A DNA stretch of 62,573 bases from Cyanosarcina radialis HA8281-LM2. Lineage in GTDB: Bacteria; Cyanobacteriota; Cyanobacteriia; Cyanobacteriales; CCAP-1448. Where the stretch lies: contig JAHHHA010000035.1 in NCBI GenBank assembly GCA_019359615.1, positions 1 to 62,573 of the forward strand, written 5' to 3'. The position numbers and the translations under genes were made by a program. The notes under the pieces are model-generated. The model made no database searches, was not told the origin of the DNA, and worked only from the letters and a program-made list of their open reading frames with translations. Shown one piece after another: positions 4,989 through 21,358 of this stretch. Positions within the stretch are counted from its first letter, which is position 1. The number at the start of each line of letters is the position of its first letter.

Positions 4989-5021
4989 AGTGCGATCGCA
5001 CGGGTGGTGATGTTGGTGGTG

Positions 5022-5079: not shown

Positions 5080-7899
5080 TTAATTCACCCTGGCGCGGAA
5101 ACGCACAAAACCGTAGGAATTATATGGACTGGGTGGGTAGGTATTTCCTGTAGAGGCAGGTAAAGATGTAGCTCCTTCAACTACTTTGACGACTACAGCA
5201 CCATTGGTATTTGCCGCCTGTCCCGATGATGTGACGTTACCAGAATTATCGAACTTTTTGCAGACGGTAGGCGTAGTGGCATCGCCCGCAGCATAAGAGC
5301 GCCCAGCATCGGCATCAGATGCATTCGTCAACAAGCTGTTAGGAGCAGTTGGTAAAGCAGAGCTATTTAAAGCTAAACCAATACCTGAATTAGCGTTATA
5401 TGTATTGGCGACAAATGTTTGATTGGTTGGGACTAAATCGCAAACTGTGATATTTTTGGCTGTTGTTATTGTATTCAGGAAGTAGATCGTGTACTCAACT
5501 ACATCACCTGGTTTGACATTTCCACCACTAATTGCCCCTCGCAAATAAGTATTTTTAGTAGCAGGCCAATTAGCATGATCGTCATCTGTAGTGCCACTAT
5601 CGTTAACAAATACGTTTAAGGGAGTGTTATCGTTGGGATTTTTGGCACTGTCGCCATTAATTGCTGTGATGCGTTTGACTAAGAGTAATTTGGGTTGCAG
5701 AACGATGTTCAAGGCATAATCTTCTACTTCCCCATAGCTACCGCCGCCTGTAGGATTACTGGCAGTCATAGGAGTTTGATTCAAACGCAACCGAACGTAG
5801 GTTTGCCCATTAGTCAGTCCGCTCAAACCCGTCCAGTTGAGAGTGACATTACCATTAGTACCATTAGTAATAGTTTGAGCCACTCCTTCGCTGGCTTCAA
5901 ATTTGCCATTCCTATTAAAGTCAATCCAACCGACTAAGTAAGCGTTTTGACCCGTAGTATTATTAACTTTCACGGATACGCTGTAGCTGGTACTAGTGGT
6001 TGGTAAAGGATTAAAGCTGCTGACTGCATCTTCATCGTCAGTACCAGTCGTATCGTCACCATTAGCATTGGTGTTAGGGTTGCCATCTGTTTCTTTATCG
6101 GTAGCAACTGTACCTAAGTAAAGGTTATTCCTCAAAATGTGGCTGGCAGCGCTTCCTCCAGTGGCAATATCTTTATTGGTGCCATAGGTGTCTGGAGCAT
6201 CACCAAAGTCAGTATCATCTCCATCGATCAGAATGACTGGAGTTTGGGCAACTGTAAACTTGCCATAAACATAAGTATCGATATATCTGCCGTTGCCAAA
6301 AGAGTTACTATTATCTCCAAAACCTCCACCACTACCTGTTATTCCCCAAGTATGCGTGCCTCCTAACGTCCCGCTGGGAAGAGTAGTGGTCGCTCCTGAA
6401 GGATTGCTCAACCCGGTTTTATCGTCCCAGTAAACTTCTGTTTGAGAAGTGGCTGCACCCGATATGGCTTTATTGATAGTCAACCCAAAAGTAGTCGGTC
6501 CGCTATTTTCCACATCACCCGCAATAAAGTGATATTCTCCCACAATCGCTTGCAATCTTGCTTGATACGTTCCAACTGGAAGGTTAGTTCCGAGATTGGT
6601 TTTCCCATTCCAAAACACGGTCACTTCATTATTGGCATTAGTCTGACCTTTAAGAAACACATCCCCAGACCCATAAATGCCATCGGGGTTAAAACCATTG
6701 TTTGGATCGGCATCATTATCCACATCGATGATAATGGCGTAAGTTCCAGTAGCGTTGGTGGTGAATTTAAAGTTGCCGCTATCTTGTACTCCTGTGGTTA
6801 CTGATGGTGTAATGGTATTATCGACTCCTTGGTTATCTTCAAATCTAAAGTTTTGAATCGTCACCACACTCGCCGCCGATGGCTCTGGGTTTACAGTAGC
6901 TGGATAGCTGAGATATTGTCTGTATTTAGGAGAGACGCTGTTACCAGAAATGGGTACGCTCAAACCTGCGACCGGATTACCAGCAGCATTAGGAGAGTCA
7001 ACTCCTAATTGATTGGCAACCAGTTCGTAGACATATCCGCCAAAATCGTTTAGGTTTAATTGCCAGATATAATTAGTTCCTGGAAATCCGCCTGGAACTC
7101 GAATATAAAGATTGGCATCGGTAGTGTTATCAAAATCATCTGCATTCAAGCCCCAAAGAAACGACCAAAGCCGCCCACTATTGGTCGTAGGATTGGGTGC
7201 CGTGCTGGTATTAGGGGTAACGGAAACATCGAATTGCCGAAAAACGGTGTTTATGTCTGTAAGGCCTGAATTTCTGTTATATAATCTAATTTCATAAACG
7301 CCAGCTTGAGCGGCAGTATGTTGGATACGTCTGCCTCCCCCGTTGGTGCTGGTATCAATATTAGTTAACTGAGCGTATGTACTACAATTAGTGTTGTTGG
7401 CACTAGTTCCAAAACTACCTTGCGATCTATAGTTGGTGGCGTTAGTGGCTGCTGCACCAGCTTGTCCGAAAACTAACGTTCCAGATGCAGGTGGATAACT
7501 AGATCGGGTTCCAGAAAAATCTGCTAGATCGGAACCGACATAATAAATATCTACTTCCCAATCATCCCCAAAAGCGGTACCGCAAGCTGAAACATTAATT
7601 ACTTCTCCGGCTGACTGAATATCTACATAGATGGGTCGGTTGATTCTAGTCAGACCGACAGCACTGATATTTTCATAGGGAGAATCATATTCAAACAAAG
7701 CTTGAAAGGGATCTCCAAGCTGATAGCTGCCTTCAGCCGCAGCCGGTAACGCTACGCCCAGAACCACTAGGGCGCTCAAACTAGTTTTAGCAACGATTCT
7801 AGTCAGCAAAGATGCGATCGCACAATAAGTTTTAGGAGTTCCTTTGCTATTGGCTGAGGGTTGAAGGGATGAATTTTTGTGGAATTGAAATATTGACAT
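5080..7899 (-). CDS. Large secreted Asn/Thr/Gly-rich surface protein with a GEVED domain and a C-terminal DUF11-like repeat
   Basis: 939 aa with an N-terminal signal peptide (…LVVLGVALPAAAEG). The GEVED motif (…SYGEVEDYALNIV) is present. The C-terminal DUF11-like segment is (…VKPGDVVEYTIYFLNT…NITVCDLVP…). Composition is low-complexity N/T/G. Confidence 0.65.
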   Translation of the reverse strand: MSIFQFHKNSSLQPSANSKGTPKTYCAIASLLTRIVAKTSLSALVVLGVALPAAAEGSYQLGDPFQALFEYDSPYENISAVGLTRINRPIYVDIQSAGEVINVSACGTAFGDDWEVDIYYVGSDLADFSGTRSSYPPASGTLVFGQAGAAATNATNYRSQGSFGTSANNTNCSTYAQLTNIDTSTNGGGRRIQHTAAQAGVYEIRLYNRNSGLTDINTVFRQFDVSVTPNTSTAPNPTTNSGRLWSFLWGLNADDFDNTTDANLYIRVPGGFPGTNYIWQLNLNDFGGYVYELVANQLGVDSPNAAGNPVAGLSVPISGNSVSPKYRQYLSYPATVNPEPSAASVVTIQNFRFEDNQGVDNTITPSVTTGVQDSGNFKFTTNATGTYAIIIDVDNDADPNNGFNPDGIYGSGDVFLKGQTNANNEVTVFWNGKTNLGTNLPVGTYQARLQAIVGEYHFIAGDVENSGPTTFGLTINKAISGAATSQTEVYWDDKTGLSNPSGATTTLPSGTLGGTHTWGITGSGGGFGDNSNSFGNGRYIDTYVYGKFTVAQTPVILIDGDDTDFGDAPDTYGTNKDIATGGSAASHILRNNLYLGTVATDKETDGNPNTNANGDDTTGTDDEDAVSSFNPLPTTSTSYSVSVKVNNTTGQNAYLVGWIDFNRNGKFEASEGVAQTITNGTNGNVTLNWTGLSGLTNGQTYVRLRLNQTPMTASNPTGGGSYGEVEDYALNIVLQPKLLLVKRITAINGDSAKNPNDNTPLNVFVNDSGTTDDDHANWPATKNTYLRGAISGGNVKPGDVVEYTIYFLNTITTAKNITVCDLVPTNQTFVANTYNANSGIGLALNSSALPTAPNSLLTNASDADAGRSYAAGDATTPTVCKKFDNSGNVTSSGQAANTNGAVVVKVVEGATSLPASTGNTYPPSPYNSYGFVRFRARVN

Positions 7900-8176
7900 A
7901 GGATTTAACTTAATTTAGCGATCGCAAGTACATAGGTGCTAGAAACCACCCGAAATCCGTCAGCAATTGTGGTAAAAGCTTAGAAACCAAGGTTTTTGTA
8001 TAGGTGCGTATATATCCTAAAAAGTAATTTAAGCGATCGCGCTTGCCCTTCACATCCATATATTTGCGGAATCCTCTGAGCGTTTTGTTTAGTTTTTGGG
8101 GTTTTCACGGATGCAGTATCGGATGTGGGGGTGGTTTAGGAATAGGAGATCGATCTGGTGGGCGATCGACATCCTG

Positions 8177-8202
8177 GGAGACGTTGCATGCAACGTCTCT
8201 AC
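8177..8202. repeat. REP-like palindrome (ggagacgttgcatgcaacgtctctac) overlapping the stop codon of the RAYT gene
   Basis: The hairpin sequence is directly visible. It is the same family as the copies at 8459-8486, 8956-8982 and 27956-27980. Confidence 0.8.
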
Positions 8203-8798
8203 ATCCATAAATTTGTCGGGTTATTTTTATCTGATTCCCATTTGGCTGGGTTGTCGATGATATATTGTCGAATTCGATCTAAGGAACCATCTGCACGGAT
8301 AATATGTTCGTAGAATCGGGTTTGCCAACCAAAATCGCCGCGATCGTTTTTCCGACACCAATGGGTAACGGCAGATTTATACGATCGCACAATTGCACCC
8401 AAAGATTTGGCATTGGGGGAAATGTCAGACATAGATTGACACCGTGCGGATTGACGTTGTAGAGACGTTGCATGCAACGTCTCTACATGGGGTGTAGGCA
8501 CAGACGATAATTCTGCTGGGCGATCGATAACAATAATGCCATGGACGTGGTTCGGCATAACGACCCAGGTATCTATATGTATGTAATTAAAATGCCCTGG
8601 AATATCGACCCAAAATTGTTGGGCAATTTTGCCAATTAGCGATAGTTGCATCTGACTGGCGATAATTTCGCCGAAAAAATGTTGGCGATCGCGGGTGCAG
8701 ATGGTAACGAAATACCAACCATTCGCGGCATAATCGCGATCGGGTAATCTGGTCGATTCTATCCGGTATTTGCCTTGATACCGTGGTGCCGTTGTCAT
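8199..8798 (-). CDS. REP-associated tyrosine transposase (RAYT, IS200/IS605 Y1-HuH family)
   Basis: 199 aa. It has an HuH motif (VMPNHVHGII) and the conserved RAYT N-terminal region (YFVTICTRDRQHFFG). A C-terminal Y-containing region is present (RSYKSAVT…GWQTRFYEHIIR). The gene is flanked on both sides by REP-like palindromes and also contains one. Confidence 0.8.
   Translation of the reverse strand: MTTAPRYQGKYRIESTRLPDRDYAANGWYFVTICTRDRQHFFGEIIASQMQLSLIGKIAQQFWVDIPGHFNYIHIDTWVVMPNHVHGIIVIDRPAELSSVPTPHVETLHATSLQRQSARCQSMSDISPNAKSLGAIVRSYKSAVTHWCRKNDRGDFGWQTRFYEHIIRADGSLDRIRQYIIDNPAKWESDKNNPTNLWM
8436..8515. repeat. REP-like element inside the RAYT coding region (core gtagagacgttgcatgcaacgtctctac at 8459-8486)
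   Basis: Perfect 9-bp inverted repeats around ttgcatgcaa. The insertion is in-frame and is translated as …PHVETLHATSLQ… within the RAYT ORF. Confidence 0.8.
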
Positions 8799-8929
8799 GG
8801 CGAGCGTTTATCTGTTGTGTGAATTGACGTTGCTTTCATTGTTCCCAGTGCGATCGCCTAAATTAATCTAGCGATCTTTAGGTATTAAGGTTGGCGGATA
8901 GATTCGGTTAGCGATCGGGCGACATATAT

Positions 8930-9005
8930 ATTGACACCAGATCGATCGACGTTGTGCAGAGACTTGCATACAACGTCTCTACGTGGGGCGTGGCCATAGA
9001 CGATA
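8930..9005. repeat. REP-like element upstream of RAYT (core gcagagacttgcatacaacgtctctac at 8956-8982)
   Basis: The palindrome and the shared flanks (ttgacacc…gacgttgt…acgtggggcgtggccatagacgat) resemble the 8436-8515 copy. Confidence 0.75.
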
Positions 9006-9498
9006 TATGGGCGCGGGCAATCCAGACAACAGATTTGGGCGATTGCTTCTACTGATGGCAAAGATCTAAATTATTGCCCTCGGTTTTCAACTTCATTAAA
9101 TGCACTCCGCATCAGTATTTACACGGGCAAAAACGATTAAAAAGCCAACTAAAAGCAGTGTTTACACCGTTAAAATATCGCGATCGCTTGCATATTATTA
9201 AACCATGAAAGCTTTTAATTCCCTAATAAATCAAGGATTTGAAGCGCGTAAACCCACCGTTAACTCTCATGAATTACGCTATTTTGCTTAACCAATTAGA
9301 GATGTTTAGCGGACGATAAACCACTAGACTAAATGTCATTTTAGAGATGAGGAGTTGGAATTAGTAAATAAATCAAGTATGAAGACTGTCTATATTTTAT
9401 AGGGCAGAAATCCTCGGTTGATAACGATCGATTCTCCCTCAAACAAGTCCAGATCTATTTAGCAGATTAATTCAGTAAATCAAGGAAATTGCATCTCA

Positions 9499-11232
9499 AT
9501 GAAGAACGTCCGCAAAATTCAAATGTACAAGCCCCTCGTCGCCGCTGCCCTAATCGTTGGTGGTACCCTACAACTAGCCGCCCCAGCCCTAGCCGATGGC
9601 ACTGCCGCTGGTACGACTATCAGCAACACCGCTACCGCGACCTATGACGATCCAGATGGCAACACGATTAACGCTACCTCTAACAAAGTTGACATCAAAG
9701 TCGCAGAAGTAGCAGGTATCGATGTCAGTTCTAATAACACTCCTACTGGTGCTGCACCTGGCGGTACGATTGACTATGACTTTGTGGTTACTAACACCGG
9801 TAACGACCCCACAAAAATTGTCCTGCCTAGCACTGCTAGCGTCAGCGGTCCCGGTACTGTAACTAGCGTTATCATTTCTACCGATGCCACCTTTGGTAAT
9901 GGTGACGACCAAGTAATTACCGGTCCCTACACCACACCTTCAGTCGCAGCTGGCGAAAAAGTCTACGTCCGAGTGGTGGTGACAGTCAACGCAGGAGCTT
10001 CAACTGGAACAGCGATTAGCGTAGAATACGGTAAATCTGCCACCCCTGCTAGTACCAACCAAGATTACGTCGCTAACGGCGCGCTAGATGCTAAAACTCA
10101 AGATAACTTAGATACCGATGGTGTCGCTGGTGAAGTCAATGGCGCTCCCGTCAACGGCGTGCGCGAAGATAGTGCTGTCTCGGCCACCAACGTCGCCGAC
10201 GCACCAGGCGTATTAAACGGCCCGAATACTCAACCAGGAGCTACAGGTGCAGACAGTACCACCAGAACTGACTTTACCAATAAAACGACCTCAGTTCCAG
10301 CAGGTACTTCACCAACCACGACGATCGATCCGACTGCGATTACCTTTACCAACACCATCCAGAATACAGGTAACGGTTCTAATCCTTTTACCGTCGTTCC
10401 CACTACAGCTACAGGCATTTTAGTCGCTGGTGGCAACTTGCCAGATGGCACTAAAGTCACCATTAAAGATCCTGTCGCCAACAAAACTGCTGAATACACC
10501 TGGAATCAGGCGACTGGCACGTTCACGATTAAGGCTGGCGATACCCCGGTTGTCATCACCATTGCATCGGGTGGCACGGCTAACTATGAAGTAATAGTCG
10601 ATCTACCTACCGGCACCGACCTATCGACCAAACTGACTACCCCCGGCGATTTCAACACTGCTGTTGGTGGCTTCCCCGTACCGATTGCCGCTTACATTGA
10701 AGATGCTACTCCTGGATTCCAAGGCACTGAAGTCAACAACATCACGACCGATCGCCTCTACACTGGCTACATGGCGATGTACAAAGAGGCTCAAATTCTC
10801 GGTGCTGATAACACCACGGTCGAACAAACCTGGACTACAGATACTACCCTGTTGACCGCTAAGGCTCGCCCGAACTACTACATTCAATACCGGATTTCTT
10901 ACAAGAATATCTCGGTAGCTGTCCCATCGGGTAGCAACAGCATCGGCTTGACAGCAACAGGCTTCGCGATTACTGAAGACGGTTTGACTGCACCCAACAA
11001 CTGGGCAAAAGACAACGACACCAATAGCAAAATCGATACCAGTAGCGTGTTGGGTTCGGCTAGCGGTGCTGGCACGATCTCTTACTTCAACAACGCTCCA
11101 GCGGTTGCAGGCACCGACCAAAATGGCGATGGCACTGCCGCTAATGAAGTGACCAAGTACGTCAATACTGTGGGCGATGTGGCTCCTAATGCCGCTACGG
11201 GGACCTTCACCTTCAAGCGCAAGATCAACTAG
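9499..11232 (+). CDS. Secreted Thr-rich surface protein with DUF11 ('conserved repeat domain') repeats
   Basis: 577 aa with a signal peptide (…LQLAAPALADG). The DUF11-like pattern is …TATATYDDPDGNTINATSNKVDIKVAEVAGIDVSS…GGTIDYDFVVTNTGNDPTKIVLP…. Confidence 0.65.
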   Translation: MKNVRKIQMYKPLVAAALIVGGTLQLAAPALADGTAAGTTISNTATATYDDPDGNTINATSNKVDIKVAEVAGIDVSSNNTPTGAAPGGTIDYDFVVTNTGNDPTKIVLPSTASVSGPGTVTSVIISTDATFGNGDDQVITGPYTTPSVAAGEKVYVRVVVTVNAGASTGTAISVEYGKSATPASTNQDYVANGALDAKTQDNLDTDGVAGEVNGAPVNGVREDSAVSATNVADAPGVLNGPNTQPGATGADSTTRTDFTNKTTSVPAGTSPTTTIDPTAITFTNTIQNTGNGSNPFTVVPTTATGILVAGGNLPDGTKVTIKDPVANKTAEYTWNQATGTFTIKAGDTPVVITIASGGTANYEVIVDLPTGTDLSTKLTTPGDFNTAVGGFPVPIAAYIEDATPGFQGTEVNNITTDRLYTGYMAMYKEAQILGADNTTVEQTWTTDTTLLTAKARPNYYIQYRISYKNISVAVPSGSNSIGLTATGFAITEDGLTAPNNWAKDNDTNSKIDTSSVLGSASGAGTISYFNNAPAVAGTDQNGDGTAANEVTKYVNTVGDVAPNAATGTFTFKRKIN

Positions 11233-11247
11233 AACGACTTAGGGCAA

Positions 11248-11285
11248 GAGAGAGGAGCAATTCCTCTCTCCAACCCTTTCCGTAT
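11248..11285 (+). terminator. Candidate intrinsic terminator after the 577-aa DUF11 gene
   Basis: The stem gagagagga…tcctctctc is followed by a weak T-rich run (caaccctttccgtatttct). Confidence 0.35.
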
Positions 11286-11523: not shown

Positions 11524-12069
11524 ATGAAACGCTCTTATATTGCTGGAATCAGTGCTTTAGCTGTTTTGGGTGTTATCCCTTTTGCGGCTCAAATGCCTGG
11601 TATCGCTAACTTGCAAGTTAACAATCTCATCGCTCAAAATAACCAAAATAAACCCCAAGTTCAATTAACCCTCAGCGCTGACAAGAAACTAGTCCAAAAT
11701 AACCAAACATCTTGGCAAGCTTTGCAAGGCAGCGTCGTCGTTCATCCTGGAGATGTAATTCGTTATAACTTAGTCGGTCAAAACCAAGGTGGCCGCCCAG
11801 CTAAAAATGTGGTATTTACTCAACCAATTCCTAAAGGCACGGTTTACGTTCTCAATTCTGCTACTAACAACACCACCAAAGTTAGCTTCAGTATTGATGG
11901 TGGCAAGACTTTTGTAGCTAACCCTACTATTCAAGTGAAATTGGCTAACGGTAAAGTCGAAACTCGTCCCGCTCCTGCCGAACAATATTCCTTCGTTCGT
12001 TGGGATGTCAAGCAAGCTATTAACCCTAAATCTACCGTCAAAGTTTCCTATCAAGTTAAAGTTCGCTAA
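11524..12069 (+). CDS. Small secreted DUF11-like protein (~181 aa from the likely start at 11524)
   Basis: The ORF opens at 11467, but ggagaggaaagATG at 11524 gives an RBS plus a signal peptide (MKRSYIAGISALAVLGVIPFAAQ). The DUF11-like motif is …VHPGDVIRYNLVGQNQGGRPAKNVVFTQPIPKGTVYV…. Confidence 0.55.
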   Translation: MKRSYIAGISALAVLGVIPFAAQMPGIANLQVNNLIAQNNQNKPQVQLTLSADKKLVQNNQTSWQALQGSVVVHPGDVIRYNLVGQNQGGRPAKNVVFTQPIPKGTVYVLNSATNNTTKVSFSIDGGKTFVANPTIQVKLANGKVETRPAPAEQYSFVRWDVKQAINPKSTVKVSYQVKVR

Positions 12070-14644: not shown

Positions 14645-14682
14645 GCGATCGCAATTTGAAACCAGAGGCAATATATTCTGGT

Positions 14683-14944
14683 CTACCGTGTATATATAAG
14701 TTATCGGTCTGAAGTTTGGCCTTTTAGATCCCCCTAAATCCCCCTTAAAAAGCGGATGCGCTGTGCGGAGGTTCCCTCCGCATACAAGCGCACCAAGCAG
14801 CGGATGCAAGCGCGGCGAGGTTCCCTCGCCATGCAGCTTGCACCAAGCAGGGGGACTTTGAGAGCGTCCCCCCTTTTTAAGGGGGGGCTAGGGGGGATCT
14901 GCGAGGGATTCAGCATCAAAACTAAAGATGTGTATACACGGTAG
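14683..14944. mobile_element. MITE-like element (~262 bp) with terminal inverted repeats ctaccgtgtatatata / tgtgtatacacggtag
   Basis: The TIRs are read directly. The interior carries nested perfect hairpins (tgcggaggttccctccgca, ggcgaggttccctcgcc) and ccccctttttaaggggg stems. The flanking duplication is attctgg(t)/attctgg(g). Confidence 0.6.
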
Positions 14945-15348
14945 ATTCTGGGTAGGGGCATGGGACAGCTAAAGTAGGCTACAGTTCGACAAGCTCACCG
15001 CAAGTCCCGCAAGAATTACCCAATTATTTTTTTAACTTCCATATATTGACTAAAAATCCGTTCTTTTCAGAACGATCGATTATTTTTGTTCTGCGGCAAT
15101 AGCAAGACTTAGTAAATTCCCATAACGCAGTCGATCGCTTTTAAAGCATTGCCTTAGAAAGACTATATCTCCTCTCAGTAAATTTACAGATATTTGGTAG
15201 GGAACTTTAGCTTACCTATTTTTTTTTGCGTGCGTTTACGGTTTCTGCCAACCCTTTAAAAATTTTAGATTAGAAACTGTAAAACTAACTACATTAAGAC
15301 TTTTAGCTGAGATGTTTGCAGTAGTTTTACCGATGAGGCTTATGAATA

Positions 15349-18300
15349 TTGATTGATATAAAAGTAGTATTAGTTAGAGACATTAATCCAGTGAAAAGCT
15401 ATTTTAAAAACGCCCAATTATTAGTTTTGATTGCTGTTTTGACCACAGTGAAAATACTGATTTTGGGTGAAGTTGCCAAAGCGAATCAGGAAAATACACC
15501 GATATCGACAGCTACTTCGTCATCTTTGGTAGCAGAACAGAACAATCTGAATCTGGACGTGCCAGCAAGTGCTGTTGGCGATCGCCCATTAGTTCCAGTT
15601 ACTACAAGTCAGACGCTAATTGCTGAAGAGACTTCGCCTTCGCCAAATACTGGAGATGCTCTAAATCCTAATCAAAATCAAACAAATACTGTTGCTCCTG
15701 AAGCTACTACAGATAACTCTAATAATACTGTCGCTCCTGAAGTTACTACAGATAACTCTAATAATACTGCTACTCCCGAAGCTACTACTAATAACTCTAA
15801 TAATACTGTCGCTCCTGAAGTTACTACAGATAACTCTAATAATACTGCTGTTCCCGAAGTTACTACAGATAACTCTACTCAACCAGAAACAACTCAACCT
15901 AGCAATCCTGTAAATAATACTGATGTCAAAATCCTAGCACCTACAACTGACACAGTTTTAGATATTCCATCTTCCAGTGTGATTCTGCAATACCCAGAGG
16001 GGGCAAAAATAGAACTGCGAGTAAATGGAAAAGTAGTTGATGATTCGTTAATCGGACGCACCGAAACAGATGCTACTACTAAATTAGTTACCCAAACCTG
16101 GTATGGCGTTTCTTTTAAAGAAGGAGAAAACACCCTCACCGCTCAAGCTCAAATTAACGGTGTTGCTGGCAATTTGGCGACATTAAAAGTCATGGTGCGA
16201 GGAGACGTTCAGCAAATTACTGTAGAGTCTGCCGAACAAAGAATTCCAGCCGATGGCCGATCGACTGCTACCATTCAAGGACAATTATTAGATGCCAACG
16301 GCAATCGTTCCAACCGGGATGCCGTGGTGACTTTAAGCGCCAGTAGCGGAGAATTCGTCGGTGCCGATTTAAATACTGACGAACCAGGATTTCAAGTTCA
16401 AGCGCGTCAAGGACAATTTACGGTCAAATTGCGATCGAATTTGAATGCCGAAACCGTGAGAATTAGAGCGGGACTTGGCAGTTTAGAAGCTTTTAACCAA
16501 GTAGAATTTGAAACTGCTTTGCGCCCTAGCATTGCCACTGGCGTAGTAGACATTCGCTTGGGTGCGAGAGGCACAGATTATTACGGTAGCCTGCGAGATT
16601 TCTTGCCACCAGATGGAGATAACAGCACTCAATTAGACGTGCGTTCGGCAGTATTCGCTACTGGAAAAGTAGGCGATTGGTTGTTTACTGGGGCTTACAA
16701 TAGCGATCGCTCCATCAACCAAGATTGCAGCGGCAATACTGGATTATCCCAAAATGTAGAAAATTGCGACCAGTATCCCGTATATGGCGATAGTTCTACC
16801 AGCGAGAGATTGGCCAGGTCGCAAGATAGCGTGTTTTTGAGATTCGAGCGCAACCGCGATTATTTCATGTGGGGCGACTACGATACTAAAGAATTCGCCA
16901 CGCGATCGCAACAATTCACCGCCATTAGCCGCCAACTGCACGGTTTCAAAGGCAACTACAACTTTGGCAACTTGCAAGTTACTGGCTTTTATGGCGATAA
17001 CGTTCAAGGTTTTCAGCGCGATACTATTGCTCCCGACGGTACCAGCGGCTATTATTTCCTATCTAAAAGGTTACTGGTTACAGGTAGCGAAGAAGTTTAC
17101 ATCGAGTTAGAAGAACTCAATCGTCCGGGAACGGTAATAGAGCGCCAACGACTCAATCGCGGTGCTGATTACGATATCGACTACGATCGCGGTACTATAT
17201 TATTTCGCGAGCCGATCTTGAGAACCGATGTCTCTCCTGAAGGTACGGTTTTAGTCAGACGAATCGTTACTACTTATCAATTTGAAGATAAGGATAATAC
17301 AGCTAATATCTTCGCTGGCAGATTGCAATACAATTTCTCTCGCCAACAAGACCGCGAAAGTTGGATTGGGGCTACCTACTTTAAGGAAAACCAAGGCAAT
17401 CGCAACTTTGAACTTTACGGTGCCGATGCTTTCGTCTCTTTGGGGACAAAAGGCAGTCTAATCGCTGAATACGCCCATTCTACCCACAATTCCGACCTGA
17501 TGGGAGAGGTTTCTGGTTCTGCTTATCGACTAGAAGCCCAAGGACAAATTATTGATGGCGTTCAAGGTCGGGCTTATTTCCGTTCGGCCGATGCTGGTTT
17601 TGCTAACAATGCTACCGTCAGCTTCGTTCCAGGGCAAACCCGTTACGGGGCTGAACTGACGGCTAGACTTTCTGATACTACTAACTTCCGAGTCGGATAC
17701 GATCGCGAAAATAACTTTGGTGTTGCCCCTCGTCCTTTAGATACCTTTGAAGATCTCTTCAATCGGGGTAGTTCTGCCGTTCCCGGTAGCAAGGTAGATA
17801 ACTCCCTCACTACCATCACCGCTGGAGTGCAACAGCGGATTGGTAAATCTACCGTCGATGTAGACTTCATCCATCGCCAGCGGGAAGATCGTCAACCTAA
17901 CAATCCTACCAGCGATACCTCGAACCAGTTGCGATCGCGGGTGAATATTCCAATTACCGATAACCTGACATTTCGGGCCCAAAACGAACTCAACCTTTCT
18001 AAAGACCAAGATATCGCTTATCCCGATCGCACGATCGTCGGTTTGAACTGGCAAGCCTATCCTGGTATCAACATCGCTTTGAACCATCAATTCTTCACCA
18101 GCCAAGAAGAAGGCTCTGGCAATAATTCTATTACTAGCTTGGATATCACGGGCGAACGCAAAATTTGGGACAATACCACGATTAAAGCGCGTTACTCGGT
18201 TATCAACGGGTTTGATGGTTTAACCGGACAAGGGGCCATCGGTTTGAACCACCAGTGGGTAATCGCCCCAGGATTGCGGATGGATTTAGCTTACGAACAC

Positions 18301-19179
18301 ATCTTCGGCGACATCTTTAATCGCACTGGTGCTGGCAAGCAATTCGCGCAACCTTTTGCCCCCGGACAAAGTGCTTCCTCTATCGGCGTAGAAAGCGGCG
18401 ATAGCTATAGCGTCGGTTTGGAATACACCGACAACCCCAATTTTAAAGCCAGCGCCCGCTTCCAGCATCGCACCTCTTCTGGAGGTAGCAATACAGTGAT
18501 TTCTGCCTCGGCTGCTGGTAAGATTTCTCCAGCCTTGACAGCCCTGGCAAGCTATCAACAAGCCAACTCTGCCAACCAAACCCTGAGAGGTTTAGGAGAT
18601 ACAGCTAACCTCAAAGTCGGTTTGGCCTACCGCGATCCTAATGACGATCGCTTTAACGCTCTGTTACGTTATGAATATCGCAAAAACCCTTCGACCATTC
18701 CTAACACTATCTTGTTCGGCAGCGGTACGGGATATGAAGATCATACCTTCGCGGCGGAAGCCATTTATGCCCCCAACTGGCGATGGGAGTTTTATGGCAA
18801 ATACGCCCTGCGTACCAGCACTACTTTCTTAGCTGAAGATTACGTCGGCAAAAGTACGACTTCTTTAGCGCAATTGCGGGCTACTTATCGGCTCAATTCC
18901 AAAATGGATTTAGTCGGAGAAGGGCGGTTTATCAACCAACCGACTACTGGCTATTCTGAAACGGGATTAGTGTTAGAAGCTGGTTACTATATCACTCCTA
19001 ATTTACGTTTATCTGCTGGCTACGTTTTTGGGAGTGCTGACGATCGCGATTTCGGCGGCAGCAGAACGGCTGGCGGTCCGTATATCGGTTTGACAGTCAA
19101 GGTCAACGAGTTGTTTGGCTTTGGCTTGCAAAAGGTGGCTCCACCTCAACAGCAAGAATCTGAAGTAAGTAATAAGTAA
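15349..19179 (+). CDS. Giant surface/outer-membrane protein: N-terminal Thr/Asn 11-aa tandem repeats, Big_1 (invasin-like) Ig domains, and a ~700-aa C-terminal predicted beta-barrel
   Basis: 1276 aa. The repeats read TVAPEATTDNSNN / TVAPEVTTDNSNN. The Big_1-like segment is (…QITVESAEQRIPADGRSTATIQGQLLDANGNRSNRDAVVTLSASSGEF…). The C-terminal half has alternating aromatic/polar strands ending …GPYIGLTVKVNELFGFGL. The true start may be downstream of 15349. Confidence 0.55.
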   Translation: MIDIKVVLVRDINPVKSYFKNAQLLVLIAVLTTVKILILGEVAKANQENTPISTATSSSLVAEQNNLNLDVPASAVGDRPLVPVTTSQTLIAEETSPSPNTGDALNPNQNQTNTVAPEATTDNSNNTVAPEVTTDNSNNTATPEATTNNSNNTVAPEVTTDNSNNTAVPEVTTDNSTQPETTQPSNPVNNTDVKILAPTTDTVLDIPSSSVILQYPEGAKIELRVNGKVVDDSLIGRTETDATTKLVTQTWYGVSFKEGENTLTAQAQINGVAGNLATLKVMVRGDVQQITVESAEQRIPADGRSTATIQGQLLDANGNRSNRDAVVTLSASSGEFVGADLNTDEPGFQVQARQGQFTVKLRSNLNAETVRIRAGLGSLEAFNQVEFETALRPSIATGVVDIRLGARGTDYYGSLRDFLPPDGDNSTQLDVRSAVFATGKVGDWLFTGAYNSDRSINQDCSGNTGLSQNVENCDQYPVYGDSSTSERLARSQDSVFLRFERNRDYFMWGDYDTKEFATRSQQFTAISRQLHGFKGNYNFGNLQVTGFYGDNVQGFQRDTIAPDGTSGYYFLSKRLLVTGSEEVYIELEELNRPGTVIERQRLNRGADYDIDYDRGTILFREPILRTDVSPEGTVLVRRIVTTYQFEDKDNTANIFAGRLQYNFSRQQDRESWIGATYFKENQGNRNFELYGADAFVSLGTKGSLIAEYAHSTHNSDLMGEVSGSAYRLEAQGQIIDGVQGRAYFRSADAGFANNATVSFVPGQTRYGAELTARLSDTTNFRVGYDRENNFGVAPRPLDTFEDLFNRGSSAVPGSKVDNSLTTITAGVQQRIGKSTVDVDFIHRQREDRQPNNPTSDTSNQLRSRVNIPITDNLTFRAQNELNLSKDQDIAYPDRTIVGLNWQAYPGINIALNHQFFTSQEEGSGNNSITSLDITGERKIWDNTTIKARYSVINGFDGLTGQGAIGLNHQWVIAPGLRMDLAYEHIFGDIFNRTGAGKQFAQPFAPGQSASSIGVESGDSYSVGLEYTDNPNFKASARFQHRTSSGGSNTVISASAAGKISPALTALASYQQANSANQTLRGLGDTANLKVGLAYRDPNDDRFNALLRYEYRKNPSTIPNTILFGSGTGYEDHTFAAEAIYAPNWRWEFYGKYALRTSTTFLAEDYVGKSTTSLAQLRATYRLNSKMDLVGEGRFINQPTTGYSETGLVLEAGYYITPNLRLSAGYVFGSADDRDFGGSRTAGGPYIGLTVKVNELFGFGLQKVAPPQQQESEVSNK
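15691..15885 (+). repeat. Six tandem 33-bp in-frame repeats within the 1276-aa gene (ACTGTCGCTCCTGAAGTTACTACAGATAACTCTAATAAT)
   Basis: Directly visible near-perfect tandem units encoding T(V/A)APE(A/V)TTDNSNN. Confidence 0.85.
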
Positions 19180-19199
19180 TAAGTAATAGGTAATTAATT

Positions 19200-19424
19200 A
19201 TGTTTAAACCGAAAATAACAACCACTAAATCGTTTGATTGGAAGCAGCTAGCACCTCGAACCAAGGCTGAAAAAGAAAAATTTGTTTGGGCATTAGTTAT
19301 TACTTGCTGCGTGCCATTTATCGCTCAGCAAGCAGATGCTAGCACTTCTGCAAAAGTAGAAGCAAAACAATTGCCACTACAACTAACAATTAATAGTGGT
19401 ATAGCCAGTCTAAATCATTCATGA
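19200..19424 (+). pseudogene. Truncated paralog: N-terminal (signal-peptide) fragment of the downstream beta-helix gene
   Basis: The 74-aa ORF …KAEKEKFVWALVITCCVPFIAQQADASTSAKVEAKQLPLQLTINSG matches the N-terminus of the 19715-21358 product (…SKREKLILALVITCCLPLIAPPADAVTPVKAEAEKLLLQVTVNS). It is followed immediately by a MITE-like element. Confidence 0.4.
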
Positions 19425-19506
19425 AATTGCGATCTAGCCGTCCTGGCTGTCCCACAGGTAGGCAGGAAAGCCATTAGTGTCAAGTTAACAGTCAAAACCT
19501 TTATCC

Positions 19507-19627
19507 GTCAGGGGTTGAAAACCCCTGCCTCAAAGCTAAAGTCCTCGCTCAGAGGACTAAATATAGTCACGCTTAGTCCATTTTAATGGACTTGTGCTAT
19601 TAGCCAGAGGTTTTGAACCTCTGGCGG
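19507..19627. repeat. MITE-like nested-hairpin repeat (gtcaggggttgaaaacccctgcc … gaggactaa … ccagaggttttgaacctctggcgg)
   Basis: A near-copy lies at 50243-50376. Single-hairpin relatives lie at ~12090-12115 and ~23715-23740. Confidence 0.65.
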
Positions 19628-19714
19628 TTGGCGCTGAAGATCGAGGTACAGCAATGGCTCTAGCCCTAATCAAAAATCAAACAGTTAAAAAATATTCATA
19701 ACTTAGAATCGGAT

Positions 19715-21358
19715 ATGTTTAGGCACAAAAGAAGAATCGCTATCAAAACTAGAAAACTATTTTACCTGCTTTCGCGATCGGAGTCCAAGAGAGAAAAACT
19801 GATTTTAGCGTTAGTTATTACTTGCTGTCTCCCATTGATAGCGCCACCAGCAGATGCCGTTACTCCAGTAAAAGCAGAAGCTGAAAAGTTACTGCTGCAA
19901 GTTACAGTTAATAGCGATCGCGATGGCAATATTGAACCAGATGACGCTCTCACTTTACGCGAAGCCATTGAAATTGTTAATGGCACCTTACCTCTAGACC
20001 GTCTGAGCGCCACCGAAAAACAGTATGTCAAGAAATTGCCGTGTAATGGCTCTATTAAAGATTGCGTTCGCTCTCAAATTAAATTCGATCTACCAGCCGA
20101 TCGAACTACTATTCAACTAACCAATATTTTGCCACCTCTTGCTACTGCCAAATTAGTAGTTGATGGCACCAGTCAACCTGGTTATCGCCGAGATCCTCTT
20201 GTGGGAATTACCCCAGCCAAAAACGCTGATGTGTTTCGCGGATTAACAGTAGTTGCAGATGGCGTGACCATTAGAGGTTTGAGCTTATACGGGTTTACGG
20301 GCAAGCATACCGCCACCGAATCGACTCCAGCAGCAGATATTTTTATTTCTCATCGCCTGCCACCACCAGATACAACCGAACAAAAACCCCCTGCGGATAA
20401 TTTCCCTTTTTATAACAGCAATATTCCTCCCCAAGAAGTAGTAATTGAAAATAATTGGTTAGGAATAAAGCCTGATGGCGGCGTTCCTCAAAATCGTTCT
20501 GCATTTGGAGTTTATGTATTTAATAGTTTGGGAACTACGATCGCAGATAATTTAATTAGCAATCACGATGGTAGCGCCATCATTACTTCAGTCAGAGCCG
20601 AAAATTTAAAAGTTACCAAAAATGTCATTACCAAAAATGGCCTAGCTGGAATGCCAGATGCTATTCGCTTAGAAGGCAAAATTGCTGGCTCTCAAATTAG
20701 CGAAAACATCATTGCCGACAATGACGGCAGCGCAATTTTCTTATTTAAACCCGATGGTGCGGTAGAAATTGCCAACAACCAAATTGAATTTAACGGAGTT
20801 CGTTTGCGTCGGGCGGCTATTTACTTAATGGGAAACAACCATAAAGTAATTAACAATGAAATTAGCGACCAAACTGCGGCTGGTGTAGTGGTAGCAGCTT
20901 ATCCTCAAAGCGATCGCAATTTCATTCAAACCAATCGATTTACCAACATAGCCGGACTCAGTATCGACCTGAATACGCAGCACAATGTCGATGCGATCGA
21001 TTACCAGCAAGGAGACGGCCCTAACCCCAAAAGAAACTCGCCCAACCGCCGTCGAGATACAGGTAATGCTGCCATTAATGCCCCTGAGTTTCTAGCCAGA
21101 GAATTTTTTACGATCGATGGCAAAGTTAATTTAGATGGCGTTGCCGATCCTGGTTCTCAAATCGAGATTTATCGCACTAGCGGCAACAAATCAGATTACA
21201 ACTCTTTGAGCGAATTACTAACAGTAGTTCAAACTGACGAACGGGGCAAATTTAGTGCCACTTTAACCGATCTGCAACTGGGAGATCGAGTTAGTGCGAT
21301 CGCTACCCATCCCCAATACGGCACCTCGGAACCTGCGATAGAGTCAGCGATTCGGTAA
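19715..21358 (+). CDS. Secreted right-handed parallel beta-helix repeat protein
   Basis: 547 aa with a signal peptide. Repeated beta-helix rungs are (…NHDGSAIITSVRAENLKVTKNVITKNGLAGMPDAIRLEGKIAGSQISENIIADNDGSAIFLFK…NNQIEFNG…). Confidence 0.6.
   Translation: MFRHKRRIAIKTRKLFYLLSRSESKREKLILALVITCCLPLIAPPADAVTPVKAEAEKLLLQVTVNSDRDGNIEPDDALTLREAIEIVNGTLPLDRLSATEKQYVKKLPCNGSIKDCVRSQIKFDLPADRTTIQLTNILPPLATAKLVVDGTSQPGYRRDPLVGITPAKNADVFRGLTVVADGVTIRGLSLYGFTGKHTATESTPAADIFISHRLPPPDTTEQKPPADNFPFYNSNIPPQEVVIENNWLGIKPDGGVPQNRSAFGVYVFNSLGTTIADNLISNHDGSAIITSVRAENLKVTKNVITKNGLAGMPDAIRLEGKIAGSQISENIIADNDGSAIFLFKPDGAVEIANNQIEFNGVRLRRAAIYLMGNNHKVINNEISDQTAAGVVVAAYPQSDRNFIQTNRFTNIAGLSIDLNTQHNVDAIDYQQGDGPNPKRNSPNRRRDTGNAAINAPEFLAREFFTIDGKVNLDGVADPGSQIEIYRTSGNKSDYNSLSELLTVVQTDERGKFSATLTDLQLGDRVSAIATHPQYGTSEPAIESAIR

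What the first reader, a model, noticed from the sequence alone, without database searches (positions are those of the whole stretch)
5080..21358. Accessory locus of DUF11/GEVED/SdrD-B surface proteins plus a 1276-aa Big_1 + C-terminal beta-barrel protein: candidate novel surface-fibre/adhesin export system
Five secreted repeat proteins are clustered within ~16 kb:
- 5080-7899 carries GEVED plus DUF11.
- 9499-11232 and 11524-12069 carry DUF11.
- 12212-14644 carries DUF11 plus an SdrD-B-like Cna-B fold.
- 15349-19179 has N-terminal 11-aa tandem repeats, invasin-type Ig (Big_1-like) domains and a ~700-aa C-terminal region with beta-barrel-like alternating aromatic strands.

The last protein has the domain order opposite to intimin/invasin 'inverse autotransporters', with the Ig passenger N-terminal and the barrel C-terminal. 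A beta-helix protein (19715-21358) and its duplicated fragment follow. All ORFs have signal peptides.

I do not know of a described system that pairs DUF11 fibre-like proteins with such a dedicated outer-membrane barrel protein. The arrangement resembles a major subunit, minor subunit, tip adhesin and outer-membrane assembly component.
Basis: partly seen in the sequence, partly recalled or inferred. Interest (0 to 1): 0.8.

Follow-up and report, generated by a model that had tools for sequence, protein, structure and literature searches.

The report
CLIPPER-protein and giant outer-membrane barrel operon
This cyanobacterial locus is one copy of a gene cluster found in several bacterial phyla, with no function assigned in the papers I could search, that pairs isopeptide-type (DUF11/CLIPPER) surface proteins with a dedicated, predicted ~38-strand outer-membrane barrel and may be an undescribed way of building surface fibres.

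Summary
Six genes with signal-peptide-like N-termini lie at 5080-21358:
- E: GEVED plus CLIPPER (the new name for DUF11).
- G: only weakly CLIPPER-like.
- H: CLIPPER.
- I: CLIPPER plus SdrD_B.
- J: 13-aa repeats, two Ig domains and a barrel.
- K: beta-helix.

AlphaFold2 models J's C-terminal ~880 residues as an outer-membrane beta-barrel of about 38 strands (pTM 0.75). A highly conserved beta-sandwich is inserted after the first 6-7 strands. No solved structure is close.

The adjacency is not chance. G-H-I-J keep the same order and strand in nearly all of 80 cyanobacterial genomes. In Smithella, Wallbacteria and Acinetobacter the I-type module (CLIPPER-SdrD_B) is fused, colinearly, to a J-type Ig-barrel. 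In Proteobacteria, giant CLIPPER adhesins ending in that module sit directly upstream of J homologues, often with an OmpA-type protein.

The best reading is an outer-membrane-anchored CLIPPER fibre/adhesin system, with J as dedicated pore and anchor; export itself is unproven. The Anabaena orthologue All3289 is uncharacterised. 38-strand barrels with invasin-D3 Ig domains had been noted computationally, but I found no description of the pairing.

A stronger reading, with the subunits joining like pilins, fits conserved terminal motifs but is untested.

The parts
5080..7899 (-). E: 939-aa secreted protein. It has a large N-terminal region, a GEVED domain (aa 654-731) and a C-terminal CLIPPER-like domain ending ...YGFVRFRARVN. 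Candidate adhesive or distal component. It is inverted and upstream here, but downstream of J on the same strand in most relatives.
   Evidence: Pfam GEVED E 1.4e-16. TIGR01451 24.7 bits. E-type ORF in 32 loci, median +3.9 kb from the J start on the + strand. In the C-terminal domain K is conserved 32/33 and the D of 'CD' 33/33.
8199..8798 (-). F: REP-associated tyrosine transposase (RAYT), flanked by REP-like palindromes GAGACGTTGCATGCAACGTCTC (5039-5065, 8178-8204, 8462-8488, 8958-8984). Not part of the system. Plausibly linked to the local inversion of E.
   Evidence: NCBIfam NF047646 E 3.8e-16 and Pfam Y1_Tnp. Repeats.
9499..11232 (+). G: 577-aa secreted protein (orthologues mostly ~850 aa). 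It has an invariant ~50-aa N-terminal motif right after the signal peptide (aa 33-83, nt 9595-9747: GTxAGxxISNTATATYxDP...SNxVxVxVAEV). Its C-terminal CLIPPER-like domain ends ...TFTFKRKIN-COOH. Candidate repeating subunit.
   Evidence: ORF. G-type family found in 63 loci directly upstream of H. The motif HMM hits the extreme N-termini of at least 20 fused CLIPPER-barrel proteins of other phyla. Conservation. Only weak CLIPPER_2 and profile matches.
11524..12069 (+). H: ~180-aa secreted single-CLIPPER-domain protein (the ORF can be read from 11467). It ends ...VSYQVKVR. The acidic residue of the CLIPPER 'xTDxLP' motif is replaced by Gln.
   Evidence: TIGR01451 38.2 bits. Present in 64 loci. 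The Smithella 172-aa neighbour is an orthologue (E 1.3e-29). Q conserved 63/64.
12212..14644 (+). I: 810-aa secreted protein. It has a variable N-terminal half, then a conserved C-terminal module of CLIPPER (aa ~563-676, nt 13898-14239) plus an SdrD_B/CnaB-like domain (aa ~695-805, nt 14294-14626). This module is the one found fused or adjacent to J-type barrels in other phyla. Candidate base or anchoring subunit.
   Evidence: Pfam DUF11 38.8 bits, SdrD_B 22.5 bits. In 71 loci, just upstream of J. K568, D602 and N669 are invariant in every orthologue with a residue at those positions (68, 68 and 70 of 71 sequences). The I-module matches near the C-terminus of proteobacterial adhesins with E 5e-13 to 6e-31.
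14730..14895 (.). MITE-like inverted repeat (33-nt arms, 100 nt apart) inside the unusually long 704-nt I-J spacer. Probably an insertion; not part of the system.
   Evidence: In other genomes I's stop and J's start are close or overlapping.
15349..19179 (+). J: 1276-aa outer-membrane protein (a GTG at 15391 is a plausible true start). In order:
- signal peptide;
- Thr/Pro/Asn-rich 13-aa repeats (15685-15877);
- two Ig-like domains (aa ~190-385, nt 15916-16503);
- a predicted ~38-strand beta-barrel (aa ~394-1253, nt 16528-19107);
- a tail ending ...NELFGF plus 18 aa.

Orthologue of Anabaena PCC 7120 All3289.
17008..17232 (+). Plug-like beta-sandwich insert of J (aa 554-628). It sits in a periplasmic-side turn after the first 6-7 barrel strands. 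It is the most conserved segment of the family across phyla (GxSGxYxL...GSExV...RxxDYxIDYxxGxIxF).
   Evidence: DSSP strands 175-249 of model 2, pLDDT ~70-86. Dense invariant columns in A1 and near-invariant columns in A2. The same motif occurs in the Smithella protein.
19257..19396 (+). Degenerate duplicate (70% identical) of the 5' part of K (19775-19914).
19715..21358 (+). K: 547-aa secreted right-handed beta-helix (NosD-like) protein with a C-terminal Ig-like domain. Orthologues (~726 aa) carry an additional C-terminal OmpA-type peptidoglycan-binding domain that is missing here.
   Evidence: Pfam Beta_helix E 7.7e-13. K family in 24 loci, directly downstream of J. The window matches only HMM positions 24-556. 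The K C-terminal HMM region matches the OmpA proteins downstream of proteobacterial barrels.

Best explanation
The locus encodes an envelope-anchored surface-fibre/adhesin system built from CLIPPER (DUF11) proteins and a dedicated giant outer-membrane barrel.

**Proposed steps**
1. Inferred from N-terminal sequences: all components cross the inner membrane by Sec.
2. Inferred from the structure prediction: J inserts into the outer membrane as a ~38-strand barrel whose lumen is gated by a conserved plug-like beta-sandwich. Its two Ig domains sit at the barrel's N-terminus.
3. The I-J partnership is shown by fusion and synteny; the binding mode is inferred. The CLIPPER-SdrD_B module at the C-terminus of I is J's cognate partner. 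It docks on J's Ig and plug region and stays at the periplasmic face.
4. Inferred: the rest of I passes through the barrel to the surface. I+J would then behave as a split version of the single-chain 'passenger-CLIPPER-SdrD_B-Ig-barrel' proteins of other phyla. This resembles an autotransporter or a two-partner pair, but with an unrelated and much larger barrel.
5. Inferred: G, H and E are further CLIPPER-type components displayed through or on the same platform, with the GEVED-bearing E as the likely adhesive end.
6. Inferred: where it keeps its OmpA domain, K ties the complex to peptidoglycan. That domain is lost in this genome.
For: **Conserved synteny**
- G-H-I-J keep the same order and strand in essentially every one of 80 cyanobacterial loci that has an upstream flank. 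Family counts: J 78, I 71, H 64, G-type 63. K follows J in 24 loci and an E-type protein in 32.
- The cluster lies on a Synechococcus NIES-970 plasmid, with I's stop overlapping J's start.

**Gene fusion**
- Among the 150 best representatives of the barrel family, 60 carry the I-type SdrD_B domain and 51 the I-type CLIPPER domain on the same chain. The order is always CLIPPER-SdrD_B-(Ig)-barrel.

**Other phyla**
- Smithella has an E-like 1017-aa protein, an H orthologue, a G-like 627-aa protein and then the fused 2460-aa protein.
It abuts the barrel gene, overlapping its start in three of the four loci. In Lysobacter an OmpA domain follows the module on the adhesin itself. In L085 and L086 a separate OmpA protein follows the barrel.
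- Acinetobacter haemolyticus plasmid p4 carries small DUF11 genes, a fused DUF11-barrel, an OmpA gene and another DUF11 gene.

**Barrel**
- AF2 with a diverse alignment gives pLDDT 78.4 and pTM 0.75. DSSP shows 6-7 strands, an insert, then 32 strands.

**Surface-adhesin character of the partners**
- CLIPPER is a stalk domain of Gram-negative fibrillar adhesins, with an intramolecular isopeptide bond (PMC12617251).
- The corresponding K/D/N residues are invariant in I orthologues.
- E carries GEVED, a domain of CshA-type adhesins (PMC10952558).

**Export signals**
- All six proteins have signal-peptide-like N-termini.
Against: - There are no experimental data. The only literature mention of the orthologue All3289 is a remark that its C-terminus 'might form an OM anchor'.
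- I had no model coordinates, so barrel closure, lumen size and the position of the insert (inside the lumen or hanging in the periplasm) are not verified.
- The strand count is 38, or 39 if the first strand counts. That leaves the side on which the Ig domains sit unresolved.
- J is 53-70% identical across cyanobacterial orders. That is more conserved than I would expect for an adhesin, which suits a housekeeping envelope role.
- Some homologues stand alone without CLIPPER neighbours (Sphingomonas).
- G's CLIPPER assignment is weak.
Confidence: 0.55

Rival explanations
1. A true pilus assembled by strand complementation, on chaperone-usher logic and without a sortase.
- The C-terminal CLIPPER-like domains of E, G and H stop just before the final Asn-bearing strand of a complete CLIPPER domain.
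- The invariant N-terminal strand of G and I ('I-x-N-x-A-x-A-x-Y') supplies that strand in trans.
- For G and E, which keep the Lys and the acidic residue, the join might be locked by an intermolecular Lys-Asn isopeptide, as in SpyTag/SpyCatcher.
- E has an acceptor only and would be the tip. G has both and would be the shaft. I has a donor only plus the docking module, and would be the terminator and anchor.
- J would be the usher-like pore with a plug.

For: - G's N-terminal motif is invariant: I, N, A, T, A, Y, D and P are each 34/34 in the G sequences that carry the motif (34 of 47).
- Its HMM hits almost only the first 20-100 residues of fused CLIPPER-barrel proteins and of the Smithella G-like protein, not internal repeats.
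- I orthologues start with a similar 'xNQA(S/T)YTYTD' motif.
- G, E and H all end exactly on a conserved strand...TFTFQRKVN (N in 46/58)...YGFIRFRxKV[KN] and ...YQTQVR.
- By inspection, that strand corresponds to I's 'LPANGVMNVAYAVVL'. In I it is followed by the N669 strand.
- The G and E acceptor domains keep the Lys (30/30 of the sequences with a residue at that position, and 32/33) and the acid (E 47/47 with D 43/47, and D 33/33). H has Gln in 63/64.
- The insert after the first 6-7 strands recalls the usher plug, which from memory lies between beta6 and beta7 in PapC and FimD.
Against: - No Usher, PapC_N/C or PapD-like chaperone family hit in any protein.
- hhalign could not place G's N-terminal strand on I's last strand (E 0.31).
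- The correspondence of the terminal strands rests on my manual alignment.
- No multimer prediction was possible.
- The proteobacterial versions often have only one giant adhesin plus the barrel. Polymerisation is therefore not needed for the family as a whole.
Confidence: 0.25
2. A structural envelope complex rather than an export system. J would be a large outer-membrane protein or porin. The CLIPPER proteins would stay in the periplasm or on the inner face of the outer membrane and, with the OmpA-type partner, brace the outer membrane to the cell wall. This would be analogous to the chlamydial outer-membrane complex (OmcB is a DUF11 protein) or to Deinococcus SlpA.
For: - J is highly conserved, at 53-70% identity across cyanobacterial orders.
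- OmpA-type peptidoglycan-binding domains recur in the system: K orthologues, the Lysobacter adhesin, and the proteins downstream of proteobacterial and Acinetobacter barrels.
- Best Foldseek hit is the OM-cell-wall connector SlpA.
- A Smithella homologue gives a weak Chlam_OMP6 hit.
Against: - Fused homologues carry 1000-2500 residues of CLIPPER/SdrD_B stalk N-terminal to the barrel. By my estimate that is too long for a periplasm.
- GEVED and CLIPPER are documented in extracellular fibrillar adhesins.
- The window's K has lost the OmpA domain while the rest is intact.
Confidence: 0.15
3. J is a TonB-dependent receptor or nutrient porin, as many database records name it. The neighbouring CLIPPER proteins would be unrelated, or merely substrate-capturing surface proteins.
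For: - PGAP and UniRef call many orthologues 'TonB-dependent receptor'.
- A DUF2490 (putative porin family) match of 33 bits to the barrel region.
Against: - No Plug, TonB_dep_Rec or any NCBIfam hit.
- About 38 strands rather than 22.
- Matches to TonB-dependent receptors cover at most 378 of 897 residues at 7-11% identity, no better than porins, FhaC, TamA or ushers.
- Fusion to CLIPPER stalks and translational coupling with adhesin genes are not explained by this reading.
Confidence: 0.03

Closest known systems
Predicted 38-/40-strand outer-membrane beta-barrel superfamily (Solan et al. 2021, PMC8346858). [quoted passage not shown] 2022, PMC9388160, SI Table S3).
   Same: The architecture matches J: N-terminal invasin-D3-type Ig domains followed by a single barrel of about 38 strands, larger than the largest solved barrel (SprA, 36 strands).
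   Different: Those reports are computational listings, with no function, partners or gene context. I could not test direct sequence homology of J to the Deinococcus proteins. The link to CLIPPER proteins, the plug-like insert and the operon are not mentioned there.
Type V secretion: classical autotransporters, two-partner secretion (TpsA/TpsB), and inverse autotransporters (intimin/invasin)
   Same: - A surface passenger is coupled to an outer-membrane barrel, either on one chain or split over two adjacent genes.
- Passenger-N/barrel-C order as in classical autotransporters.
- Invasin-type Ig domains as in intimin/invasin.
   Different: - No Autotransporter, POTRA/ShlB, TPS or IAT_beta domain.
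- About 38 strands versus 12 or 16.
- An internal plug-like domain.
- Domain order opposite to intimin/invasin.
- Additional CLIPPER proteins and an OmpA-type partner.
Chaperone-usher pili (PapC/FimD ushers)
   Same: - A large barrel with a beta-sandwich inserted early in the barrel, and periplasmic N-terminal Ig-like domains.
- A gene set that can be read as tip, shaft, terminator and pore.
- Ig-fold subunits with conserved N-terminal strands.
   Different: - No sequence relationship to ushers.
- No PapD-like chaperone gene.
- 38 strands versus 24.
- Subunits are CnaA-type CLIPPER domains rather than pilin folds.
- There are no C-terminal usher domains.
Gram-negative CLIPPER/GEVED fibrillar adhesins (e.g. 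Acinetobacter silvestris B9T28_05395; Costa et al. 2025, PMC12617251; PMC10952558)
   Same: The same stalk (CLIPPER) and GEVED domains, a signal peptide, an OmpA-like anchoring element in the system, and conserved isopeptide-type K/D/N residues.
   Different: - Those papers describe single long chains and do not identify an outer-membrane partner.
- Here the domains are spread over four or five shorter proteins, each with one CLIPPER domain, next to a dedicated barrel.
Chlamydial outer-membrane complex (OmcB, a DUF11 protein, with MOMP and OmcA)
   Same: DUF11/CLIPPER protein(s) functionally associated with an outer-membrane barrel in a diderm envelope.
   Different: OmcB is cysteine-rich and disulfide cross-linked, and MOMP is a small porin. 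There is no operon or fusion relationship, and no giant barrel.

Membership tests
CLIPPER (DUF11, PF01345/TIGR01451) domain proteins | Profile hit above the curated cutoff | tested here: met
   Met for three of the four proteins:
- I: 38.8 bits against 24.6.
- H: TIGR01451 38.2 against 24.
- E: 24.7 against 24.

Not met for G, which has only CLIPPER_2 at 16.2 bits against 27.
CLIPPER (DUF11) domain proteins | Intramolecular Lys-Asn isopeptide with a catalytic Asp (K715/D748/N806 in PDB 9IFR) | tested here: inconclusive
   K568, D602 and N669 of I are invariant in every orthologue with a residue at those positions (68, 68 and 70 of 71 sequences), with similar spacing. phmmer did not align I to 9IFR, and no chemistry can be tested here.
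Fibrillar adhesin (single long chain: adhesive head, tandem stalk, anchor) | Tandem stalk repeats and a cell-surface anchor on the same chain | tested here: not met
   Each window protein has one CLIPPER-type domain and no OmpA or sortase motif. The feature is met in proteobacterial and fused homologues.
38-strand OMBB with N-terminal invasin-D3 Ig domains (PMC9388160 SI; PMC8346858) | N-terminal invasin-D3-type Ig domain(s) | tested here: met
38-strand OMBB with N-terminal invasin-D3 Ig domains | Single barrel of about 38 strands | tested here: met
   DSSP of the pTM 0.75 model shows 6-7 strands, an insert, then 32 strands. The same pattern appears in model 1. Barrel closure was not checked because no coordinates were available.
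38-strand OMBB with N-terminal invasin-D3 Ig domains | Sequence homology to the listed D. radiodurans proteins (AAF11946 etc.) | not tested
TonB-dependent receptor | N-terminal plug domain (PF07715), TonB box and 22-strand barrel (PF00593) | tested here: not met
   No Plug or TonB_dep_Rec hit in Pfam, and no NCBIfam hit at E <= 0.1. About 38 strands.
Chaperone-usher pathway | Usher (PF00577, PapC_N/C), a PapD-like chaperone, and pilins with a donor strand | tested here: not met
   No usher or chaperone family hit in any ORF of the locus. The resemblance is only in layout: an early plug-like insert and N-terminal Ig domains. The donor-strand idea is untested.
Type V secretion (Va, Vb, Ve) | Autotransporter beta-domain (12 strands), or POTRA plus a 16-strand TpsB, or IAT_beta with LysM | tested here: not met

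The most novel reading that the evidence does not exclude
The J family and its CLIPPER partners may constitute a previously unrecognised outer-membrane assembly pathway that is widespread in diderm bacteria (Cyanobacteria, Desulfobacterota, Proteobacteria including Acinetobacter, Wallbacteria, Lentisphaerae).

In this reading a plug-gated ~38-strand barrel, larger than any solved barrel, extrudes and anchors fibres whose subunits join head-to-tail. Each subunit would insert a conserved N-terminal Asn-bearing strand into the truncated C-terminal CLIPPER domain of the preceding subunit. The join might be sealed by a self-catalysed intermolecular isopeptide bond.

That would be a sortase-independent, covalently linked pilus in Gram-negative bacteria.
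Probability: 0.25. Interest if true: 0.92.

Novelty: new variant of a known kind. Interest (0 to 1): 0.72.

Why it matters
**An open question.** The two survey papers I read on CLIPPER/GEVED fibrillar adhesins in Gram-negative bacteria list OmpA-like domains as 'anchors'. In what I read of them, they name no outer-membrane partner and no route across the outer membrane.

**What this locus adds.** This locus and its relatives identify a specific outer-membrane partner that is genetically coupled and often fused. That makes the question directly testable.
- In model cyanobacteria: Anabaena PCC 7120 all3289 and the genes next to it.
- In Acinetobacter.

**If the barrel is a translocon.** It would add a new outer-membrane export and anchoring route, and a 38-strand barrel to structural biology.

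**If the subunits polymerise through a split CLIPPER domain.** It would be a new pilus-assembly chemistry, and a natural SpyTag-like system.

**For cyanobacteria.** It gives a candidate for surface fibres involved in adhesion, aggregation, sheath attachment or gliding in filamentous forms.

Tried and rejected
- **PDB sequence searches.**
  - Searches with J and with the J alignment found nothing useful.
  - phmmer of I's C-terminal module gave only a marginal hit to a fimbrial chaperone (E 0.047). I treated it as noise.
- **NCBIfam.** No model matched G or J.
- **hhalign.** Comparing G's N-terminal motif with I's CLIPPER domain was uninformative (E 0.31). The C-terminal domains of G, E and H aligned only over the core 'PGD...Y.I..N...D.P' region. 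The 'missing last strand' therefore could not be shown by profile alignment.
- **Foldseek against afdb50.** The library was not available.
- **Rfam.** Nothing found in 1-26000.
- **Promoter and terminator scans.** Counts were close to the shuffled expectation and were not used.
- **Literature searches.**
  - Searches for the Anabaena locus tags all3288-all3293 returned only a passing remark on All3289 and a predicted FurC site upstream of all3292.
  - Papers on DUF11 grappling hooks in Chloroflexota, and on a DUF11 signal peptide in Synechococcus PCC 11901, are about unrelated proteins.
- **Rejected readings.**
  - Coincidental adjacency, rejected because of synteny and fusions.
  - TonB-dependent receptor, rejected because no defining feature is present.
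  - Soluble beta-sandwich for J's C-terminus, rejected because all structural neighbours are outer-membrane barrels.

Full report
**What is in the window**

I label them as follows:
- E: 5080-7899, minus strand
- F: 8199-8798, minus strand
- G: 9499-11232
- H: 11467/11524-12069
- I: 12212-14644
- J: 15349-19179
- K: 19715-21358

The flanks are housekeeping genes. Upstream are SPFH/flotillin, CobO and a dCTP deaminase-like gene. Downstream are TerB-like and RsmB genes. The locus therefore spans about 5.0 to 21.4 kb.

Protein I is 100% identical to a protein of the MAG Cyanosarcina radialis HA8281-LM2, which identifies the source organism.

**Domain content**
- E has a solid GEVED domain and a borderline DUF11-type repeat.
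- H and I have DUF11 hits above the curated cutoffs.
- I also has a sub-threshold SdrD_B (CnaB-type) domain. Many orthologues carry a precomputed hit to it.
- G has no hit above threshold, only CLIPPER_2 at E 0.011.
- J has a sub-threshold Invasin_D3 Ig hit and a DUF2490 (putative porin) hit.
- K is a right-handed beta-helix.
- F is a REP-associated tyrosine transposase.

J's N-terminal tandem repeat has a 39-nt unit, so the repeats are 13 aa rather than 11. The 'duplicated fragment' of K lies upstream of K, at 19257-19396. All six proteins have a basic N-region, a hydrophobic core and an AxA-like site. Two cytoplasmic controls, the RAYT (F) and RsmB, do not. This is a heuristic check only.

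**J is an outer-membrane barrel**

A first AlphaFold2 model of J residues 190-1276, built with 52 close homologues, gave pLDDT 70.6. It showed two Ig domains followed by about 38-40 strands.

A second model covered residues 380-1276 and used 99 sequences, including homologues of 18-27% identity. It gave pLDDT 78.4 and pTM 0.75.

DSSP on the second model shows, in order:
- seven strands, of which the first may be a linker;
- a compact beta-rich insert at model residues 175-249, which is J 554-628;
- 32 further long strands.

Turns of 2-5 residues alternate with longer, low-confidence loops, as in outer-membrane proteins. By that alternation the insert sits in a periplasmic-side turn. This is my reading of the DSSP string, because I had no coordinates.

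The insert is the best-conserved segment of the whole family, and it is recognisable in a Smithella homologue.

**The neighbourhood is not chance**

A scan of one genome per species returned 374 relatives. I fetched 80 loci. tblastn and ORF clustering gave the following picture:
- J is present in 78 loci.
- The I family is immediately upstream in 71.
- H is upstream of that in 64.
- A G-type protein is upstream of H in 63. Usually it is about 850 aa; it is 577 aa here.
- All of these lie on J's strand.

Downstream of J, 24 loci have K and 32 have an E-type protein on the same strand. In the window E is inverted and moved upstream, next to the RAYT and REP-like palindromes.

The same five genes, all annotated 'hypothetical', sit on plasmid1 of Synechococcus sp. 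NIES-970. There I's stop overlaps J's start.

**Evidence from other phyla**

phmmer of the barrel region against 1.84 billion cluster representatives found 2377 families at E <= 1e-3. Many distant members, at 26-33% identity, are 1500-3300 aa long with the barrel at the C-terminus.

Pfam finds five or more CLIPPER domains plus SdrD_B/CarboxypepD_reg and Ig domains on the same chain in proteins from Smithella and Candidatus Wallbacteria.

Using the window's own domains as queries, 60 of the 150 best representatives contain the I-type SdrD_B domain and 51 the I-type CLIPPER domain. The order is always CLIPPER-SdrD_B-(Ig)-barrel, which is the order of I followed by J.

Gene neighbourhoods agree with this:
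- **Smithella:** an E-like 1017-aa protein, an H orthologue (E 1e-29), a 627-aa protein sharing G's N-terminus, and then the fused 2460-aa protein.
- **Devosia, Lysobacter and two loci from unnamed genomes (L085, L086):** a 2254-3181-aa CLIPPER/SdrD_B adhesin carries the I-type module near its C-terminus (E 5e-13 to 6e-31). It abuts the barrel gene, overlapping its start in three of the four loci.
- **OmpA-type partners:** in L085 and L086 a separate OmpA-domain protein follows the barrel. In Lysobacter the OmpA domain is the adhesin's own C-terminus.
- **Acinetobacter haemolyticus plasmid p4:** small DUF11 genes, a 2008-aa fused DUF11-barrel, an OmpA family protein, and another DUF11 protein.
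- **Sphingomonas:** one homologue stands alone.

K orthologues in other cyanobacteria end in an OmpA-type domain. That domain matches the proteobacterial OmpA-domain proteins that follow the barrel in L085 and L086. The window's K lacks it.

**What is known**

*CLIPPER domain.* DUF11 was renamed CLIPPER in 2025. It has a CnaA-like fold with an intramolecular Lys-Asn isopeptide (PDB 9IFR), and it is described as the stalk domain of fibrillar adhesins in Gram-negative bacteria. One example has GEVED near the N-terminus and an OmpA-like 'anchor' (PMC12617251; PMC10952558). In what I read of them, neither paper names an outer-membrane partner.

*Anabaena orthologue.* The J orthologue in Anabaena PCC 7120 is All3289. 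[quoted passage not shown]

*Giant barrels.* Solan et al. predicted a superfamily of 38- and 40-strand barrels (PMC8346858). [quoted passage not shown] That is J's architecture. The largest solved barrel is SprA, with 36 strands.

The barrel type is therefore not new as a prediction. Its function and its partnership with CLIPPER proteins are not described in anything I could search.

**Mechanism**

Synteny, translational coupling and colinear fusion show that I's CLIPPER-SdrD_B module and J's Ig-barrel work together.

Two observations point to a threaded topology. In fused proteins a passenger of 1000-2500 residues precedes this module. In Lysobacter a peptidoglycan-binding domain follows it. 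The most economical topology is therefore:
- the module and the Ig domains sit at the periplasmic face;
- the N-terminal stalk is threaded outward through the barrel;
- the complex is fixed in the outer membrane and, where an OmpA domain is present, to the wall.

This is a split autotransporter-like arrangement with an unrelated, much larger, plug-bearing barrel. It is inference; nothing here shows export.

The high conservation of J keeps a purely structural envelope role alive as a rival. The 'TonB-dependent receptor' label fails every defining feature.

**A sharper, untested idea**
- G's mature N-terminus is an invariant motif (...I-S-N-T-A-T-A-T-Y-E-D-P...S-N-T-V-T-V-T-V-A-E-V).
- An HMM of that motif hits almost exclusively the first 20-100 residues of fused CLIPPER-barrel proteins of other phyla and of the Smithella G-like protein.
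- I orthologues begin with a similar 'NQA(S/T)YTYTD' motif.
- G, E and H all terminate exactly on a conserved beta-strand. By manual comparison with I's complete CLIPPER domain, this is the strand just before the Asn-bearing last strand.
- The G and E terminal domains keep the Lys and the acidic residue, whereas H has Gln.

This pattern gives each protein a possible role:

| Protein | Donor strand | Acceptor domain | Possible role |
|---|---|---|---|
| E | no | yes | tip |
| H | no | yes, but no acidic residue | unclear |
| G | yes | yes | shaft |
| I and the fused proteins | yes | no; carries the docking module | terminator and anchor |

That is what a strand-complemented, possibly isopeptide-locked, fibre would need, with E as tip, G as shaft and I as terminator and anchor. 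It rests only on sequence patterns, and profile alignment could not confirm it.

**Verdict**

The locus is a typical cyanobacterial member of a widespread gene cluster for which I found no experimental characterisation. It lies near, but outside, type V secretion, chaperone-usher pili and the described CLIPPER adhesins.

Noticed in passing
window 4471-5033: A 131-nt unit repeated about 3.7-4 times in tandem (96% matches). It starts near the 3' end of the dCTP-deaminase-like gene (3999-4598) and ends just before E's stop. There is no Rfam match.
   Followed up: partly
window 5039-5065, 8178-8204, 8462-8488, 8958-8984: REP-like palindromes (GAGACGTTGCATGCAACGTCTCTACAT) surround the RAYT gene, and one lies inside it (8199-8798). 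One copy sits just past E's 3' end. They may have mediated the inversion and relocation of E relative to other cyanobacteria.
   Followed up: partly
loci L012, L017, L028, L031, L055 and others (about 13300-14100 in locus coordinates): A RAYT orthologue (53-64% identical over full-length matches) lies immediately downstream of J in 10-13 other cyanobacterial genomes. That is an unexpectedly conserved position for a transposase-derived gene.
   Followed up: no
window 14730-14895: A MITE-like element with 33-nt inverted arms rich in C/G runs (CCCCCTAAATCCCCCTTAAAAAGCGG...). It is inserted in the I-J spacer, which is 704 nt here but short or overlapping in relatives.
   Followed up: partly
window 19715-21358 compared with L009 13552-15762: K in this genome has lost the ~180-aa C-terminal OmpA-type peptidoglycan-binding domain present in orthologues. 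A 140-nt degenerate copy of K's 5' end lies at 19257-19396, which suggests local rearrangement.
   Followed up: yes
L054 and L080 (Symplocastrum torsivum); L033 and L060 (Leptolyngbya sp. AN10); L028 and L077: Some cyanobacterial genomes carry two copies of the J locus. The second copy often has a shortened I and no G or H match.
   Followed up: no
L087 (Synechococcus NIES-970 plasmid1) and L088 (Acinetobacter haemolyticus p4, mobilizable): The whole cluster occurs on plasmids in a unicellular marine cyanobacterium and in Acinetobacter, which suggests horizontal spread.
   Followed up: partly
window 19166-19194: A TAAGTAA heptamer is repeated about four times across J's stop codon.
   Followed up: no
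window 15349-15391: J's listed TTG start is probably too far upstream. The GTG at 15391 gives a canonical signal peptide (KSYFKNAQLLVLIAVLTTVKILILGEVAKA/NQ).
   Followed up: partly
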